From Alphaproteobacteria bacterium (lineage in GTDB: Bacteria; Pseudomonadota; Alphaproteobacteria; CALKHQ01), in contig CBDDFZ010000001.1 of the NCBI GenBank assembly GCA_965227515.1, positions 64,001 through 128,000 of the forward strand: a stretch of 64,000 nucleotides of DNA. The letters are read 5' to 3'. Positions within the stretch are counted from its first letter, which is position 1, and every line of letters starts with the position of its first letter. Positions 591 to 59,128 of this stretch are shown here, in pieces. The translations under genes and the position numbers were made by a program. Under the pieces are notes generated by a model that searched no databases, was not told where the DNA came from, and saw only the letters and a list, made by a program, of their open reading frames with translations.

Positions 591-680
591 CGTCATGGTC
601 GGGCTTGTCCCGACTATCCACGTCTTGTTGGCTGCTCCGCAGCCATCTCGTGGATGCCCGCAACAAGTGCGGGCATGACG
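591..680. repeat. CGTC-tagged REP doublet (family B)
   Basis: cgtcatggtcgggcttgtcccgactatccacg ... cgtggatgcccgcaacaagtgcgggcatgacg; related copies at 15656, 18623, 50088, 59014. Confidence 0.9.
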
Positions 681-7226: not shown

Positions 7227-8351
7227 TCAGCCCGTATTGAATTCAGCGGGCAGTGCGACCTCCAGCAACTCGAAGTCCCCGGAGGCATCGGTCAGGGCAT
7301 GGCCTTCGCCCGCCGGCACCATGAAGGCGTCCGCCTTGCCTAGCGCGTGGTCGCCGTGGCCGTCTGTGCGCAGCGTCACCGAACCGCCGAGCACGAAGCC
7401 GAACAGCGCCGTCGCATCGTGTTGGCGGAAGTCGTGCGCGCCCTCCGCTCCGTCGGGCCGCGCCACCCAGGCGCCGGCGACACCGCCGGTTGCCACCCCG
7501 ATGCCGGTGTCGCGCACCTCGTAGCCCGGCAATCGCCATGGCTGCCACGACGCCTCCGCCGCCACGTGCCGCACGAAGCGCTGACCGCCAAACACCCGGT
7601 CGGGTGACACGCGCTCGGTTGGAAGCTGCATCTCATGGTCGACCGAGGTCATGTGCGCCGCCGGACACCCCACCTCCACCACTTCCAGGCCGGGGCTCGC
7701 CTCCAGCACCCGGTGGCGGATTTGCGGCGGCTGCAGCACGCAGTCGCCGGCCTCGAGCACGAAGGGCGATCCCTGGTCCTGGTAGACCAGCCGCACCCAG
7801 CCGGCGACGCAGAAGATCATCTGGAAGCGGATGGTGTGGAAATGGACGTAGTCGGGCACCGGACCGCCATCGGGAATGCGGATGTGCGACGCAATCAGGT
7901 AGCCGCCCTGCCGGTCCGGCACCAGGTCGCGGTACTGCATGCCGGCGCGCCCGGTGCCCCATTTGCTGCCACCGTCGAAGCGGGTGACGACGAAGGACGG
8001 CACCGCCGGCGGCACCACCAGCGGCGGGGTCGCGGGCGCGAACTCGATGCGGGTGCCGTTGGGCGCGGTCAGCGCCTCGGCGGTATCGCCATCCTGGCGG
8101 GCCAGCCGCAGCACGCCGGGCGCGCCGGCGCCATTCCGGATGAGGCAGAGGCGGAGGCCGTGGCCGGAGACCGTGGCCTCGGCCGGGTGGTCGGCGGGGA
8201 TGATGGTGTCGACCCGGAAGCCCAGCCGGTCGGTGAAGAACGCCAGCGTCTCGTCGAACGGCTCCGCCGGCAGCACCATCGCCGCTGCTTGGACACCGGC
8301 GTGTTTGGTTGCACCCGTTTCAACGTCCGATGATTGATGAGGTTGCGCCAT
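7227..8351 (-). CDS. VOC/glyoxalase-like N-terminus plus cupin domains
   Basis: FFTDRLGFR (VOC-like); HFH...FQMIFCVAGWV...GDCVLQPPQIRH (cupin); a second degenerate cupin at the C-terminus. Confidence 0.7.
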   Translation of the reverse strand: MAQPHQSSDVETGATKHAGVQAAAMVLPAEPFDETLAFFTDRLGFRVDTIIPADHPAEATVSGHGLRLCLIRNGAGAPGVLRLARQDGDTAEALTAPNGTRIEFAPATPPLVVPPAVPSFVVTRFDGGSKWGTGRAGMQYRDLVPDRQGGYLIASHIRIPDGGPVPDYVHFHTIRFQMIFCVAGWVRLVYQDQGSPFVLEAGDCVLQPPQIRHRVLEASPGLEVVEVGCPAAHMTSVDHEMQLPTERVSPDRVFGGQRFVRHVAAEASWQPWRLPGYEVRDTGIGVATGGVAGAWVARPDGAEGAHDFRQHDATALFGFVLGGSVTLRTDGHGDHALGKADAFMVPAGEGHALTDASGDFELLEVALPAEFNTG

Positions 8352-8366
8352 TTCCTAACTTTGTTC

Positions 8367-8744
8367 TCGTCGCCCTCGCCCTTGTGGCGAGGGCCCATTT
8401 TGCCTACCGCGTGATGCTTGGCCAGAGATCTTCCCAGTGCGGATTCTCGCGTTCGATCAAGTTGATCTTCCAGTCTCGCCGATACTGTTTGAGTCGCTTC
8501 TCGCGCCGGATTGCGTCAATCGCGGTGGCATGAGCTTCAAAGTAGACCAACTCTTTGACGTCGTTTTGCTTGGTGAAGCCCGCGGCGACACCAGTTCGGT
8601 GCTCCCAGACGCGCCGGACGATATCGTTGGTGACGCCTATGTAGAGGGTGCCGTAGGGTCTACTCGCAAGAACATAAACATAATAGCTCATCGAGTGCAG
8701 TGTGGCCCCGAAATGGGCCCTCGCCACAAGGGCGAGGGCGACGA
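8367..8744. mobile_element. Putative REP-bounded GIY-YIG cassette with perfect 34-bp terminal inverted repeats (family A)
   Basis: 8367-8400 tcgtcgccctcgcccttgtggcgagggcccattt is the exact reverse complement of 8711-8744; each arm has a 9-bp internal stem. Mobility is inferred. Confidence 0.7.
8404..8691 (-). CDS. Small GIY-YIG nuclease (95 aa)
   Basis: MSYYVYVLAS..GTLYIGVTNDIVRRVWEH...AIRREKRLK...NPHWEDL; the GIY-YIG Y/R/E/N residues are present. Confidence 0.92.
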   Translation of the reverse strand: MSYYVYVLASRPYGTLYIGVTNDIVRRVWEHRTGVAAGFTKQNDVKELVYFEAHATAIDAIRREKRLKQYRRDWKINLIERENPHWEDLWPSITR

Positions 8745-8803
8745 TGAGTTTGCGAGCCGGTCTGCAAGTATCAAACCATCGGGCAATAGGAACGTCAGGT
8801 GAC

Positions 8804-9853
8804 TTACCGCGACGGGCCGGCGCGTTCGGCCGACTTGGCCCACAGATTGACCCCGCCCTCCACGGCATGGGCGTCGATCTCGGCCAGCTCGGCATCGGTG
8901 AAGTCCTGGTTGGCAAGCGCGCCAACGCAGGCGTCGATCTGCTCGGTCCGGCTGGCGCCGATCAGCGCAGAGGTCACCCGTCCACCGCGCAGCACCCACG
9001 CCAGCGCCATCTGCGCCAGCGTCTGGCCCCGCCGCTCGGCAATGGCGTTCAGCGCGCGGGCATGCTCGATGTTCTCCTCGTTCAGGAACGCCGTGCGCAG
9101 CGACTTGCCCTGGGCTGCCCGGCTGTCGTCGGGAATGCCCTTCAGGTACTTGTCGGTCAGCATGCCCTGTGCCAGCGGCGAGAAGGCGATGCAGCCGATG
9201 CCCTCGTCCTCCAGCGTGTCGAGCAGGCCGTCGTCCTCGACCCAGCGGTTGATCATCGAATAGCTCGGCTGGTGGATCAGGCAGGGCACGTTGTTGGCCT
9301 TCAGAATCGCCGCGGCCTCGCGCGTGCGCTGGGAATTGTAGGACGAGATGCCGACATAGAGCGCCTTGCCCTGCTGCACCGCCGTGACCAGCGCGCCCAT
9401 GGTCTCCTCCAGCGGCGTGTCGGGGTCGAAGCGGTGGGAATAGAAGATGTCGACATAGTCCAGGCCCATCCGCTTCAGCGACTGGTCCAGGCTGGCCAGC
9501 ACGTACTTGCGGCTGCCCCATTCGCCATATGGCCCCGGCCACATGCCGTAGCCGGCCTTCGACGAGATGATCAACTCGTCACGCAGGTGCGCGAAGTCCG
9601 ATTTCAGGAACTTGCCGAACCGGGTCTCGGCCGAGCCCGGCGGCGGGCCGTAGTTGTTGGCAAGGTCGAAATGGGTGATGCCGAGGTCGAACGCGCGCCG
9701 GCACAGGGCGCGCGCGTTATCCTCGCGCGCGTCGTCACCGAAATTGTGCCACAGGCCGAGCGAGATCGCCGGCAGCTTCAGCCCGCTGTTGCCGCAGCGA
9801 TTGTAGGTCATCGAGTCGTAGCGGTCGGCGGCGGGCACATATTGAGAGGTCAT
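8804..9853 (-). CDS. Aldo/keto reductase, L-glyceraldehyde 3-phosphate reductase (YghZ/MgrA) type
   Basis: SLGLWHNFG, HFDLANNYGPPPGSAE, SSKAGY, DIFYSHRFD. Confidence 0.92.
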   Translation of the reverse strand: MTSQYVPAADRYDSMTYNRCGNSGLKLPAISLGLWHNFGDDAREDNARALCRRAFDLGITHFDLANNYGPPPGSAETRFGKFLKSDFAHLRDELIISSKAGYGMWPGPYGEWGSRKYVLASLDQSLKRMGLDYVDIFYSHRFDPDTPLEETMGALVTAVQQGKALYVGISSYNSQRTREAAAILKANNVPCLIHQPSYSMINRWVEDDGLLDTLEDEGIGCIAFSPLAQGMLTDKYLKGIPDDSRAAQGKSLRTAFLNEENIEHARALNAIAERRGQTLAQMALAWVLRGGRVTSALIGASRTEQIDACVGALANQDFTDAELAEIDAHAVEGGVNLWAKSAERAGPSR

Positions 9854-15655: not shown

Positions 15656-15746
15656 CGTCATGCCCGCACTTGTTGCGGGCATCCACGTCTTATTGGCCGC
15701 CTGAGCGGCCATCTCGTGGATGGTCGGGTCAAGCCCGACCATGACG
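15656..15746. repeat. CGTC-tagged REP doublet (family B)
   Basis: cgtcatgcccgcacttgttgcgggcatccacg...cgtggatggtcgggtcaagcccgaccatgacg. Confidence 0.9.
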
Positions 15747-18622: not shown

Positions 18623-18709
18623 CGTCATGCCCGCACTTGTTGCGGGCATCCACGACTTTGGTCCCGGCGTCGGAAGACTTGGATGCTCGGGACAAGCCCG
18701 AGCATGACG
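18623..18709. repeat. CGTC-tagged REP doublet (family B)
   Basis: cgtcatgcccgcacttgttgcgggcatccacg...tggatgctcgggacaagcccgagcatgacg between convergent genes. Confidence 0.9.
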
Positions 18710-29220: not shown

Positions 29221-29399
29221 TGTCGTCCTCGCCCGTGTGGCGAGGACCCATTGCCGTCCAGTGCGTCAAACGGCGACACAGTGTTTTGATCCCTTTGTGG
29301 CAGCTAACTGACAAACGCTAACGCATCGGGATCGAACATATCCCCAGGTTATTGAGACCTGCATCAGGATGGGCCCTCGCCACAAGGGCGAGGGCGACA
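29221..29399. repeat. Inverted pair of family A REP hairpins with a non-coding spacer of about 117 bp
   Basis: tgtcgtcctcgcccgtgtggcgaggacccat (29221-51) and atgggccctcgccacaagggcgagggcgaca (29369-99). Confidence 0.85.
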
Positions 29400-50087: not shown

Positions 50088-50203
50088 CGTCATGCCCGCA
50101 CTTGTTGCGGGCATCCACGTCTTGCATCATTTGCACTGGTAAAGACGTGGATACCCGGGTCTCGGTCCGCCGGAAATTCGGCCGGACCGGCCCGGGCATG
50201 ACG
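50088..50203. repeat. CGTC-tagged REP doublet (family B) with an expanded right arm
   Basis: cgtcatgcccgcacttgttgcgggcatccacg...cgtggatacccggg[extra hairpin]cccgggcatgacg. Confidence 0.85.
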
Positions 50204-54616: not shown

Positions 54617-54631
54617 TCCGGCAATAGCTTT

Positions 54632-54662
54632 GACGCCCTCGCCCTCGCGGCGAGGGCCCATT
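54632..54662. repeat. Solo degenerate family A REP hairpin
   Basis: gacgccctcgccctcgcggcgagggcccatt, with the same gccctcgcc/ggcgagggc stem and ccat tail as 8367. Confidence 0.75.
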
Positions 54663-59013: not shown

Positions 59014-59128
59014 CGTCATGGTCGGGCTTATCCCGACCATCCACGTCTTATTGGCCGCTTCGCGGCCAGCTCGTGGATGCCTCCTCGGATCAAGTCCGAG
59101 GACAGGCTTCACACGTGCGGGCATGACG
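59014..59128. repeat. CGTC-tagged REP doublet (family B) with a nested hairpin
   Basis: cgtcatggtcgggcttatcccgaccatccacg...cgtggatgcc[tcctcggatcaagtccgagga]...gcgggcatgacg. Confidence 0.85.

What the first reader, a model, noticed from the sequence alone, without database searches (positions are those of the whole stretch)
8367..8744. GIY-YIG nuclease bracketed by a perfect inverted pair of CGTC REP hairpins: candidate mobiliser of CGTC REPs
Seen: a 378-bp unit with exact 34-bp inverted ends (tCGTC-gccctcgcc-cttgt-ggcgagggc-CCAttt), tags pointing outward. A 95-aa GIY-YIG gene fills the interior: its stop is 3 nt from one arm, its start 19 nt from the other, and it is less GC-biased than its neighbours. 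No target duplication is visible. The same repeat family occurs without the gene at 29221-29399 (pair) and 54632 (solo). Known, from memory of the REP literature: GTAG-tagged REPs flank and are processed by HUH RAYT transposases, whereas the CGTC-tagged superfamily of Alphaproteobacteria was reported without a dedicated transposase. Inference: this is a RAYT-analogous autonomous unit in which a GIY-YIG hairpin nuclease nicks at the CGTC tag and drives spread of the repeats. Best candidate here for an undescribed system.
Basis: partly seen in the sequence, partly recalled or inferred. Interest (0 to 1): 0.88.

Follow-up and report, generated by a model that had tools for sequence, protein, structure and literature searches.

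The report
Known Ssn nuclease flanked by hairpin repeats
A tiny nuclease gene sits between two mirror-image copies of a DNA hairpin that is scattered hundreds of times through this genome; this pairing is real, but it was published in 2025 as the Ssn nuclease system, so it is a new example of a known thing.

Summary
Arms 8367-8400 and 8711-8744 are a perfect 34-nt inverted repeat around a 95-aa GIY-YIG gene (8404-8691, minus strand).

It is not undescribed. Chenal et al. 2025 (PMC11893778) described single-domain GIY-YIG "Ssn" nucleases. Their genes are flanked by CGTC-tagged hairpins, and the enzymes cut single-stranded DNA just 5' of the hairpin. That paper raises the transposon analogy only as a hypothesis. 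This scan has noted the same arrangement on other DNA before.

What I add for this genome:
- A second copy (79% identical) is bracketed the same way, with its own compensatory stem variant.
- There are 224 hairpins of this family, and all 82 adjacent pairs point tags outward, mostly as about 177-bp units.
- A second family of about 246 hairpins has no nuclease gene of its own.
- Of 80 homologue loci, 65 carry a tagged hairpin within 150 bp and 42 carry outward-pointing ones on both sides, a 14-fold local enrichment.
- A relative carries a cassette between two genes that are adjacent in three other genomes, which points to an insertion.

Whether the nuclease itself spreads the repeats is still untested.

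Verdict: a new member of a known kind, of modest interest.

The parts
8367..8400 (+). Left arm. It has a 5' tag (T-CGTC), a 9-bp stem (8372-8380 pairing with 8386-8394), a CTTGT loop and a CCATTT tail. The tag faces away from the gene.
   Evidence: a 34-nt perfect inverted repeat, with a single-stranded DNA hairpin at -12.3 kcal/mol and z -4.98.
8404..8691 (-). ssn-type gene encoding a 95-aa single-domain GIY-YIG nuclease (P0001). Y6, Y17, R27, H31, E64 and N83 are all present.
   Evidence: Homologues are about 95 aa long and start at the same M-x-Y-Y-V-Y motif. The best match among solved structures is the UPF0213 protein 1zg2, at E 4e-6.
8711..8744 (-). Right arm. It is the exact reverse complement of the left arm, with its tag facing away from the gene.
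   Evidence: -12.3 kcal/mol, z -3.79.
8352..8366 (.). The 15-nt spacer between the left arm's tag and the start codon of the next minus-strand gene (a cupin-domain protein, 7227-8351). By homology, the expected cut falls within this spacer, a few nucleotides 5' of the tag.
   Evidence: The cut position is inferred from PMC11893778 and was not tested.
8745..8803 (.). The 59-nt spacer between the right arm and the stop codon of the upstream minus-strand aldo/keto reductase gene (8804-9853). All three genes are co-directional, so read-through transcription of the nuclease gene is possible.
   Evidence: No promoter-like or terminator-like site was found in 8200-8950.
29221..29399 (.). A gene-less 179-bp pair of the same hairpin family, with tags outward. 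One arm is of the GTCCTCGCC type and the other of the GCCCTCGCC type.
54631..54661 (+). A solo copy of the same hairpin family, with the tag variant TGAC.

Best explanation
This is an Ssn/SRM cassette. It consists of a gene for a 95-aa single-domain GIY-YIG endonuclease of the Ssn type, flanked by two inverted copies of the CGTC-tagged hairpin that enzymes of this family recognise.

Shown by the sequence:
- Each arm folds into a 9-bp-stem hairpin with an unpaired 5' tag and a C directly after the palindrome.
- The arms are inverted with tags outward.
- The same geometry holds for nearly all of the roughly 450 related hairpins in the genome.

Inferred from the characterised homologues:
- The enzyme binds the folded hairpin only when the DNA is single-stranded, for example during replication, DNA uptake or repair.
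- It reads the stem sequence and the flanking bases.
- It hydrolyses the strand a few nucleotides 5' of the tag, using the Tyr6/Tyr17/Arg27/His31/Glu64/Asn83 site with Mg2+.

Consequence of the tags-outward geometry: the cuttable form of the left arm is on the top strand and that of the right arm is on the bottom strand. Each cut would therefore fall just outside the unit, at its 5' boundary on that strand.

The hairpin-gene-hairpin cassette behaves as a unit that can be gained at new sites over evolutionary time. Whether the nuclease causes that movement, or the spread of the gene-less pairs, is open.
For: Protein:
- Pfam GIY-YIG matches at E 3.3e-12, covering residues 3-77 of 95, with no room for a second domain.
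- Y6, Y17 and E64 are invariant across 32 homologues. These are the same residue numbers whose mutation abolished cleavage in the 94-aa N. meningitidis SsnA.

Association with hairpins:
- Both copies in this genome (2 of 2) are bracketed by inverted arms.
- Copy 2 carries the GCA/TGC stem variant on both arms. That variant makes up only 7 of 224 copies.
- Of 80 homologue loci from many phyla, 65 have at least one tagged hairpin within 150 bp and 42 have outward-tagged hairpins on both sides. That is 151 hairpins in 23,853 bp near the gene against 85 in 184,998 bp further away.
- Some of these homologues are flanked by the exact published NTS consensus, for example L077, which is 58% identical to P0001 (the NTS consensus as quoted).

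Repeat census in this genome:
- There are 224 oriented copies and 82 adjacent pairs, all 82 with tags outward.
- Across both hairpin families, 174 of 181 adjacent pairs point tags outward.
- The only two tags-outward pairs with 300-700 bp between the arms are the two nuclease cassettes.

Mobility as a unit:
- Relative G001 has a 375-bp cassette between two genes. The same two genes are 42, 35 and 31 bp apart between aligned blocks in G000, G002 and G003.
- The gene's GC content is 12-16 points below that of its neighbours.

Nuclease clades and hairpin classes:
- Separate Bradyrhizobium nuclease clades go with different hairpin classes.
- The two copies here plus G001's form one clade (SH-aLRT 94), all three with G[CT]CCTCGCC-type arms.
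Against: - I could not align P0001 directly to N. meningitidis SsnA, nor score it against CDD cd10448, because neither is available in the tools. Family membership therefore rests on proxies.
- The hairpin has G where the published degenerate SRM pattern requires A or T at position 5, so that pattern, as I transcribed it, does not match these arms.
- No enzymatic activity was measured for this protein.
- The equally abundant second hairpin family has no nuclease gene of its own.
- The tree has only 99 columns and few supported branches.
- The insertion inference rests on four genomes.
Confidence: 0.85

Rival explanations
1. Mobiliser. The nuclease is the engine that spreads the hairpin units, in analogy with RAYT and REP. 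Nicks at the outer boundary of each arm start copying or excision of the cassette and of the gene-less pairs.
For: - All 82 adjacent pairs of the family share the cassette's tags-outward geometry.
- A cassette was gained at a new site in G001.
- The hairpin family has 222 copies in G000, which has two nuclease genes with all catalytic residues. It has 0 copies in G001-G003 at up to 2 mismatches.
- G001, whose single gene carries Y17H, W74R, N83I and P84R, has only the two arms of its own cassette.
- No HUH transposase was reported next to CGTC repeats (PMC3733652).
Against: - GIY-YIG enzymes hydrolyse DNA and form no covalent intermediate, so they cannot rejoin strands on their own (established knowledge).
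- The two arms are cuttable on opposite strands, unlike IS200/IS605 ends.
- The interiors of the about 177-bp units are only 35% identical to each other (random expectation 26%), and 0 of 59 units has a partner at 80% or more, so whole units have not been copied recently.
- Those interiors show no similarity to the gene.
- No target duplication is seen.
- The 222-versus-0 contrast rests on four related genomes, three of them drafts of 40-350 contigs.
Confidence: 0.3
2. Domesticated host function with no role in spread. The nuclease restricts or trims single-stranded DNA that carries the hairpins, for example incoming or recombining DNA. The hairpins are kept by selection as its recognition sites.
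For: - This is the only biological effect demonstrated for the family: SsnA lowers transformation by NTS-bearing DNA in N. meningitidis (PMC11893778, abstract and Discussion).
- The arms are 89-91% identical among copies whose interiors have drifted to 35%. This fits selection, or conversion, acting on the hairpins.
Against: - It does not explain why the gene itself sits between two hairpins, why it has low GC, or why a cassette appears at a new site in G001.
- Natural competence is unknown for this organism.
- There are no hits in the PADLOC defence models.
Confidence: 0.35
3. Homing-type selfish gene. The nuclease gene is a passenger that invades pre-existing hairpin pairs. Cutting at a pair would be followed by repair templated on a gene-bearing pair. 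On this reading the gene parasitises the repeats rather than spreading them.
For: - The cassette's arms are of the common family type.
- The gene fills the space between the arms almost exactly, with 3 and 19 nt to spare.
- Both gene copies have low GC.
- Many GIY-YIG enzymes are homing endonucleases (established knowledge).
Against: - In G001 the arms arrived together with the gene at a site that has no hairpin in three other genomes, and G001 has no other copy of the hairpin.
- The cassette arms are both of the GCCCTCGC type, whereas typical pairs combine two different arm types. For example, 32 and 13 of the 82 pairs combine a GCCC arm with a GTCC arm.
- Characterised family members did not cut double-stranded DNA.
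Confidence: 0.12
4. Coincidence. An ordinary small gene happens to lie between two intergenic repeats that serve some other role, such as terminators.
For: The repeats are abundant, at roughly one per 12 kb across both families.
Against: - The arms are identical over 34 nt.
- Both gene copies are bracketed, each by its own arm variant.
- The same bracketing is seen in 42 of 80 loci across phyla, with 14-fold local enrichment.
- No terminator-like T-run is present.
Confidence: 0.01

Closest known systems
Ssn nucleases with NTS/SRM hairpins (SsnA of Neisseria meningitidis; CDD cd10448 GIY-YIG_unchar_3). Source: Chenal et al., Nat Commun 2025, PMC11893778. I read the abstract, the outline and sections 7, 8, 10, 12 and 17. 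I did not open the supplements.
   Same: - The protein is a single-domain GIY-YIG of about 94-95 aa.
- Tyr6, Tyr17 and Glu64 are present.
- The gene is flanked on both sides by inverted hairpins.
- The hairpins have a 5' CGTC/TGTC tag and a C directly after the palindrome.
- The hairpin is also dispersed in hundreds of copies.
- Different nuclease lineages go with different hairpin variants.
   Different: - The stem sequence differs: GCCCTCGCC here against ATTCCCGCG in NTS.
- The loop is 5 nt (CTTGT).
- Position 5 is G, which the published degenerate search pattern (W at that position) does not allow.
- The dispersed copies are almost all organised as tags-outward pairs at fixed spacing of about 177 bp.
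- Activity is untested here.
CGTC-tagged REP superfamily. Source: Di Nocera, De Gregorio and Rocco, BMC Genomics 2013, PMC3733652. I read passages from the abstract, Results and Discussion.
   Same: - It is a short tagged palindrome.
- It is abundant and often occurs in inverted dimers.
- It is typical of Alphaproteobacteria.
- Several families can coexist in one genome.
   Different: That paper reported no partner enzyme. Here, and in the 2025 paper, a GIY-YIG gene is the flanked partner. I did not assign these repeats to one of that paper's four CGTC families.
REPtrons: RAYT (HUH/Y1) transposase genes flanked by GTAG-tagged REPs (mentioned in PMC3733652 and PMC11893778; details otherwise recalled).
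   Same: A single gene is bracketed by inverted copies of a genome-wide hairpin repeat, and the enzyme acts on single-stranded hairpins.
   Different: The enzyme fold and chemistry are unrelated: hydrolytic GIY-YIG here against HUH with a covalent tyrosine intermediate. The tag is also different. Strand transfer is known for HUH enzymes and unknown for GIY-YIG.
UPF0213 / YhbQ-type small GIY-YIG proteins (PDB 1zg2 and 1ywl).
   Same: They are small stand-alone GIY-YIG domains and the only solved structures matched by sequence (E 4.1e-6 and 5.5e-4).
   Different: They are only distantly related: about 30 bits, against 127 bits or more for the 119 hits listed below the window's own protein. No link to hairpin repeats is known to me.

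Membership tests
Ssn nuclease family (cd10448; PMC11893778) | Single-domain GIY-YIG protein under 150 aa (SsnA is 94 aa). | tested here: met
   P0001 is 95 aa and the Pfam GIY-YIG domain covers residues 3-77.
Ssn nuclease family (cd10448; PMC11893778) | Catalytic residues whose mutation abolishes cleavage in SsnA (Y6, Y17, E64). | tested here: met
   Y6, Y17 and E64 are invariant in 32 aligned homologues, including P0001. There was no direct alignment to SsnA itself.
Ssn nuclease family (cd10448; PMC11893778) | Gene flanked 5' and 3' by SRM hairpins (HGTC tag, hairpin, C after the palindrome). | tested here: met
   Both arms have this design. However, the strict published pattern requires A or T at position 5 and these arms have G.
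Ssn nuclease family (cd10448; PMC11893778) | Sequence homology to N. meningitidis SsnA (E below 1e-10), or cd10448 as the top CDD hit. | not testable with these tools
   Neither the SsnA sequence nor CDD was available. As a proxy, P0001 is 51-66% identical to the 80 homologues found, some of which are flanked by the exact NTS consensus, for example L077.
Ssn nuclease family (cd10448; PMC11893778) | Site-specific cleavage of single-stranded DNA near the hairpin, with no activity on double-stranded DNA or RNA. | not testable with these tools
   This needs a biochemical assay.
CGTC-tagged REP superfamily (PMC3733652) | A 20-40 bp palindromic repeat with an unpaired CGTC-type tag at one end, in high copy number and frequently in inverted dimers. 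| tested here: met
   There are 224 copies, with tag CGTC in 101, TGTC in 94 and other tags in 29. There are 82 inverted pairs. Extragenic location was not tested systematically.
REPtron / RAYT | An HUH/Y1 tyrosine transposase gene flanked by GTAG-tagged REPs. | tested here: not met
   The protein is GIY-YIG, not HUH, and the tag is CGTC.
IS200/IS605-type single-strand transposon | Subterminal hairpins at both ends, recognised on the same strand. | tested here: not met
   The arms are inverted, so the tagged form lies on opposite strands at the two ends.
GIY-YIG homing endonucleases (I-TevI / Seg type) | A nuclease domain joined to a separate DNA-binding domain, with the gene inside an intron or a phage genome. 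| tested here: not met
   At 95 aa there is no room for a second domain. There is no PHROGs hit, and the gene lies in a chromosomal intergenic site.

The most novel reading that the evidence does not exclude
The hairpin-gene-hairpin cassette is an autonomous mobile element of a kind not yet demonstrated. On this reading it is driven by a hydrolytic GIY-YIG nickase rather than by a transposase with strand-transfer chemistry. Nicks just outside each arm, on opposite strands, would prime copying or repair that moves the cassette. The same nicks would create or maintain the hundreds of gene-less, tags-outward pairs at fixed spacing.

- A cassette was gained at a repeat-free operon junction in a relative.
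- The hairpin has 222 copies in the genome with two intact genes, against 0 in three relatives.
- The lone cassette in G001, whose gene has lost Tyr17 and Asn83, has no dispersed copies.
Probability: 0.25. Interest if true: 0.75.

Novelty: new member of a known kind. Interest (0 to 1): 0.3.

Why it matters
As it stands, this is one more Ssn/SRM locus, which is useful for annotation. The gene should be named an Ssn-type single-strand-specific GIY-YIG endonuclease. The repeats should be annotated as its SRM / CGTC-REP hairpins.

Three points go a little beyond the published description and could be followed up:
- The published search pattern misses hairpins with G at position 5. In 80 homologue loci, 23 of 151 gene-proximal hairpins have G there, so repeat counts based on that pattern are underestimates.
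- This genome offers two paralogous enzymes with arms that differ by one compensatory base pair, plus a second abundant hairpin family with no gene. That is a compact system for testing specificity.
- The insertion polymorphism and the 222-versus-0 contrast give the open question a concrete comparative starting point: does the nuclease spread the repeats, or only use them?

Tried and rejected
- **Empty-site test for the window's cassette.** In the three genomes of the same family, the two flanking genes are not adjacent, so nothing could be concluded.
- **Empty-site test for copy 2.** The flanking genes are adjacent in all three relatives. However, the 1.25-1.75 kb gap holds unrelated content: a roughly 330-aa ORF on the other strand, with no ssn and no ORF194. 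This shows only that the spot is variable.
- **The gene-less pair at 29221-29399.** Its flanks are not syntenic in the relatives.
- **Are the about 177-bp units deletion derivatives of the cassette?** No. Only 8-14-nt chance matches link their interiors to the gene.
- **Do their interiors fold?** No. The mean z-score is -0.10, and 1 of 40 units tested (of 59) falls below -2, using mononucleotide shuffles. An earlier, larger version of this script timed out.
- **Target-site duplication.** None was found.
- **Other databases.** Rfam gave nothing above chance in 8000-9100. No promoter-like or terminator-like sites were found in 8200-8950. NCBIfam, PADLOC and PHROGs gave no hits.
- **First scan of homologue flanks.** An exact-match inverted-repeat scan found only 20 of 80 loci with a repeat of 16 nt or more and was too strict. 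I replaced it with the tagged-hairpin scan.
- **Odd-sized pairs.** The 281-bp and 436-bp units hold no nuclease remnant. A pair 2 kb apart (C1:221258-223301) encloses ORFs that look like IS transposases, named by eye. Another pair 2.5 kb apart encloses ordinary-looking long ORFs and is probably two solo hairpins.
- **Not done.** I did not predict a structure or a complex, because the Pfam and PDB sequence matches made the fold uncontroversial.

Full report
**1. The observation**

The window holds a 378-bp unit at 8367-8744. Its ends are a 34-nt perfect inverted repeat.
- Each arm reads T-CGTC, then a 9-bp stem GCCCTCGCC, a CTTGT loop, the complementary stem, and CCATTT. The CGTC tag is on the outer side.
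- As single-stranded DNA each arm folds at -12.3 kcal/mol. No shuffle out of 200 folds as well.
- Between the arms, on the minus strand, lies a 95-aa ORF (8404-8691). Pfam GIY-YIG covers residues 3-77 at E 3.3e-12.
- The stop codon is 3 nt from one arm and the start codon 19 nt from the other.
- The gene is 54.5% GC, against 70.5% and 66.6% for its neighbours.
- The hairpin recurs in the window at 29225-29247/29373-29395 and at 54635-54657. That is 5 matches where shuffles give none.

**2. The wider genome**

The assembly is 5.52 Mb in 2 contigs, at about 66.6% GC.
- **Second nuclease gene.** A copy 79% identical lies at C1:3903471-3903755. It too is bracketed by inverted arms with tags outward. 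Both of its arms carry the same compensatory stem variant, GCCCTCGCA...TGCGAGGGC. Only 7 of 224 copies have that variant.
- **Other GIY-YIG domains.** The only two others in the genome lie in long frames of 671 and 677 aa.
- **First hairpin family.** I counted 224 oriented copies: tag CGTC in 101, TGTC in 94 and other tags in 29. They form 82 adjacent pairs less than 700 bp apart. All 82 point tags outward, and 46 of them measure 175-179 bp from tag to tag. The two nuclease cassettes are the 376-bp and 377-bp members.
- **Second hairpin family.** A general scan for perfect hairpins (stem of at least 8, loop of 3-8) found 1771, of which 680 carry a GTC tag on one side. This revealed stems beginning AT, for example CGTC-ATGCCCGCA-CTTGT-TGCGGGCAT-CCACGT. 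There are 246 such copies, mostly in tags-outward pairs of about 80 bp.
- **Geometry overall.** Across both families, 174 of 181 adjacent pairs are tags-outward. The only two tags-outward pairs with 300-700 bp between the arms are the two nuclease cassettes.
- **Flanks.** There is no target duplication. Outside each tag lie about 12 A/C-rich, G-poor nucleotides, with T at position -1 in 75% of copies.

**3. What it is**

A full-text search for GIY-YIG together with repetitive extragenic palindromes returned Chenal et al., Nat Commun 2025 (PMC11893778). I read its abstract and sections 7, 8, 10, 12 and 17. The paper reports the following:
- It defines the Ssn family (CDD cd10448). These are single-domain GIY-YIG proteins of about 94 aa.
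- Their genes are flanked by CGTC-tagged hairpins, called NTS in Neisseria and SRM in general. In that paper, 71% of homologues have an SRM nearby and 42% have one on both sides.
- SsnA binds the hairpin only in single-stranded DNA and cuts a few nucleotides upstream of it.
- It does not act on double-stranded DNA, RNA or the reverse strand.
- The Y6A, Y17A and E64A mutants bind but do not cut.
- Homologues from three other species cut their own hairpins.

The protein here has Y6, Y17 and E64, all invariant in an alignment of 32 homologues.

My own survey of 80 homologue loci reproduced the association. I had asked for 1.5 kb of flank on each side, and some loci are cut short by contig ends.
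- 65 of the 80 have a tagged hairpin within 150 bp.
- 42 of the 80 have outward-tagged hairpins on both sides.
- The density is 6.3 per kb near the gene against 0.46 per kb further away.

Several of these homologues are flanked by the exact NTS consensus. One is L077, which is 58% identical to P0001. This ties P0001 to the published family, although I could not align it to SsnA itself or score it against cd10448.

The arms here differ from the published degenerate SRM pattern at one position: G where the pattern has W. The same is true of 23 of 151 gene-proximal hairpins in the 80 loci. The second, AT-type family in this genome fits it.

**4. How it probably works**

- **Shown by the sequence:** foldable hairpins with a 5' tag, inverted arms, and the same geometry genome-wide.
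- **Inferred from the characterised homologues:** the enzyme recognises the folded hairpin in single-stranded DNA and hydrolyses the strand a few nucleotides 5' of the tag.
- **Consequence of the geometry:** because the arms are inverted, the cuttable form is on the top strand at the left end and on the bottom strand at the right end. Both cuts would fall just outside the unit.
- **Contrast with IS200/IS605:** in those elements both ends are processed on one strand. GIY-YIG chemistry also offers no covalent intermediate for rejoining. Any movement would therefore need host replication or repair.

**5. Evidence on mobility**

For the two cassettes of this genome, the three available relatives were uninformative. 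They belong to the same family but another genus, and conserved genes are about 80% identical at the DNA level.

The reverse comparison worked.
- Relative G001 carries a homologous 375-bp cassette (L103 1501-1875) between two genes.
- The orthologues of those two genes are separated by 42 bp between aligned blocks in G000, which is in fact TAG-GACC-ATG. The separations are 35 bp in G002 and 31 bp in G003.
- One gain in the G001 lineage is the simplest reading.
- That gene is an intact 95-aa frame, but it has Y17H, W74R, N83I and P84R at positions that are invariant or nearly so elsewhere.
- G001 has no copy of the hairpin other than its own two arms.
- At up to 2 mismatches, the hairpin has 222 copies in G000 and none in G001-G003.
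- A protein search finds 2, 1, 1 and 0 homologues in G000, G001, G002 and G003. G002's homologue is flanked by a different hairpin.

These contrasts fit the idea that an active enzyme goes with repeat expansion. However, they rest on four related genomes, three of them drafts.

Against recent copying of whole units:
- Among 59 units of 170-181 bp, the arms are 89-91% identical but the interiors only 35% (random expectation 26%).
- No unit has a partner at 80% or more.
- The interiors are neither structured nor related to the gene.

Fixed spacing with near-random interiors is unexplained.

**6. Nuclease clades and hairpin classes**

A quick tree of 78 proteins is poorly resolved (99 columns). 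Five of the 80 locus-derived proteins were dropped by a length filter, and the two window copies and G001's were added.
- The two window copies and G001's copy form one group (SH-aLRT 94). All three have G[CT]CCTCGCC-type arms.
- Separate Bradyrhizobium groups go with separate hairpin classes: ATTGCCGGG/ATGGCCGGG in one and [AG]TCGCCCGG in another.
- This agrees with the paper's statement that enzyme-hairpin pairs co-evolve, but it is not a formal test.

**7. Verdict**

That partnership was published in 2025, and this scan has met it on other DNA many times. One search shows 124 notes holding the search words, several of which reach the same verdict.

The specific claim that the nuclease mobilises the repeats remains a hypothesis. 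I put it at about 0.25-0.3. I file the locus as a new member of a known kind, with modest interest.

Noticed in passing
window 654-676 (-), 15660-15742 (pair), 18627-18705 (pair), 50092-50114 (+), 59018-59040 (+): A second CGTC-tagged hairpin family, with stems beginning AT (for example ATGCCCGCA-CTTGT-TGCGGGCAT followed by CCACGT). It has 246 copies genome-wide, mostly in tags-outward pairs of about 80 bp. It fits the published SRM pattern, but no nuclease gene lies next to any copy.
   Followed up: partly
G000 genome-wide; window example 29221-29399: The gene-less pairs keep their spacing (46 of 82 are 175-179 bp) and their arms (89-91% identical), but their interiors are only 35% identical, unstructured and unrelated to the nuclease gene. 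I have no explanation for fixed spacing with near-random interiors.
   Followed up: partly
L103 1501-1875 (handle G001, C21:16825-17199): A relative's cassette sits in what is a 4-nt stop-to-start junction in G000 and a similarly short spacer in G002 and G003. Its 95-aa frame is intact but carries Y17H, W74R, N83I and P84R. Its arms are the only copies of the hairpin in that genome.
   Followed up: yes
L112 (G000 C1:221000-223600): Two outward-tagged hairpins 2 kb apart enclose ORFs that look like IS5-type and IS630-type transposases. This may be a hairpin pair split by insertion sequences. The ORFs were named by eye and not searched.
   Followed up: no
L124 about 1320-2010 (handle G002, C266): A homologue 54% identical is flanked by a different hairpin (CGTC-GTGGTCCGG-CTYGA-CCGGACCAC-CCAC), which lies in the same orientation on both sides. 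Palindromes tagged on both ends are also present nearby.
   Followed up: no
window 8352-8366 and 8745-8803: The cassette lies between two co-directional minus-strand genes (an aldo/keto reductase upstream and a cupin-domain protein downstream). The left arm ends only 15 nt before the downstream gene's start codon, so the cassette sits in that gene's leader.
   Followed up: no
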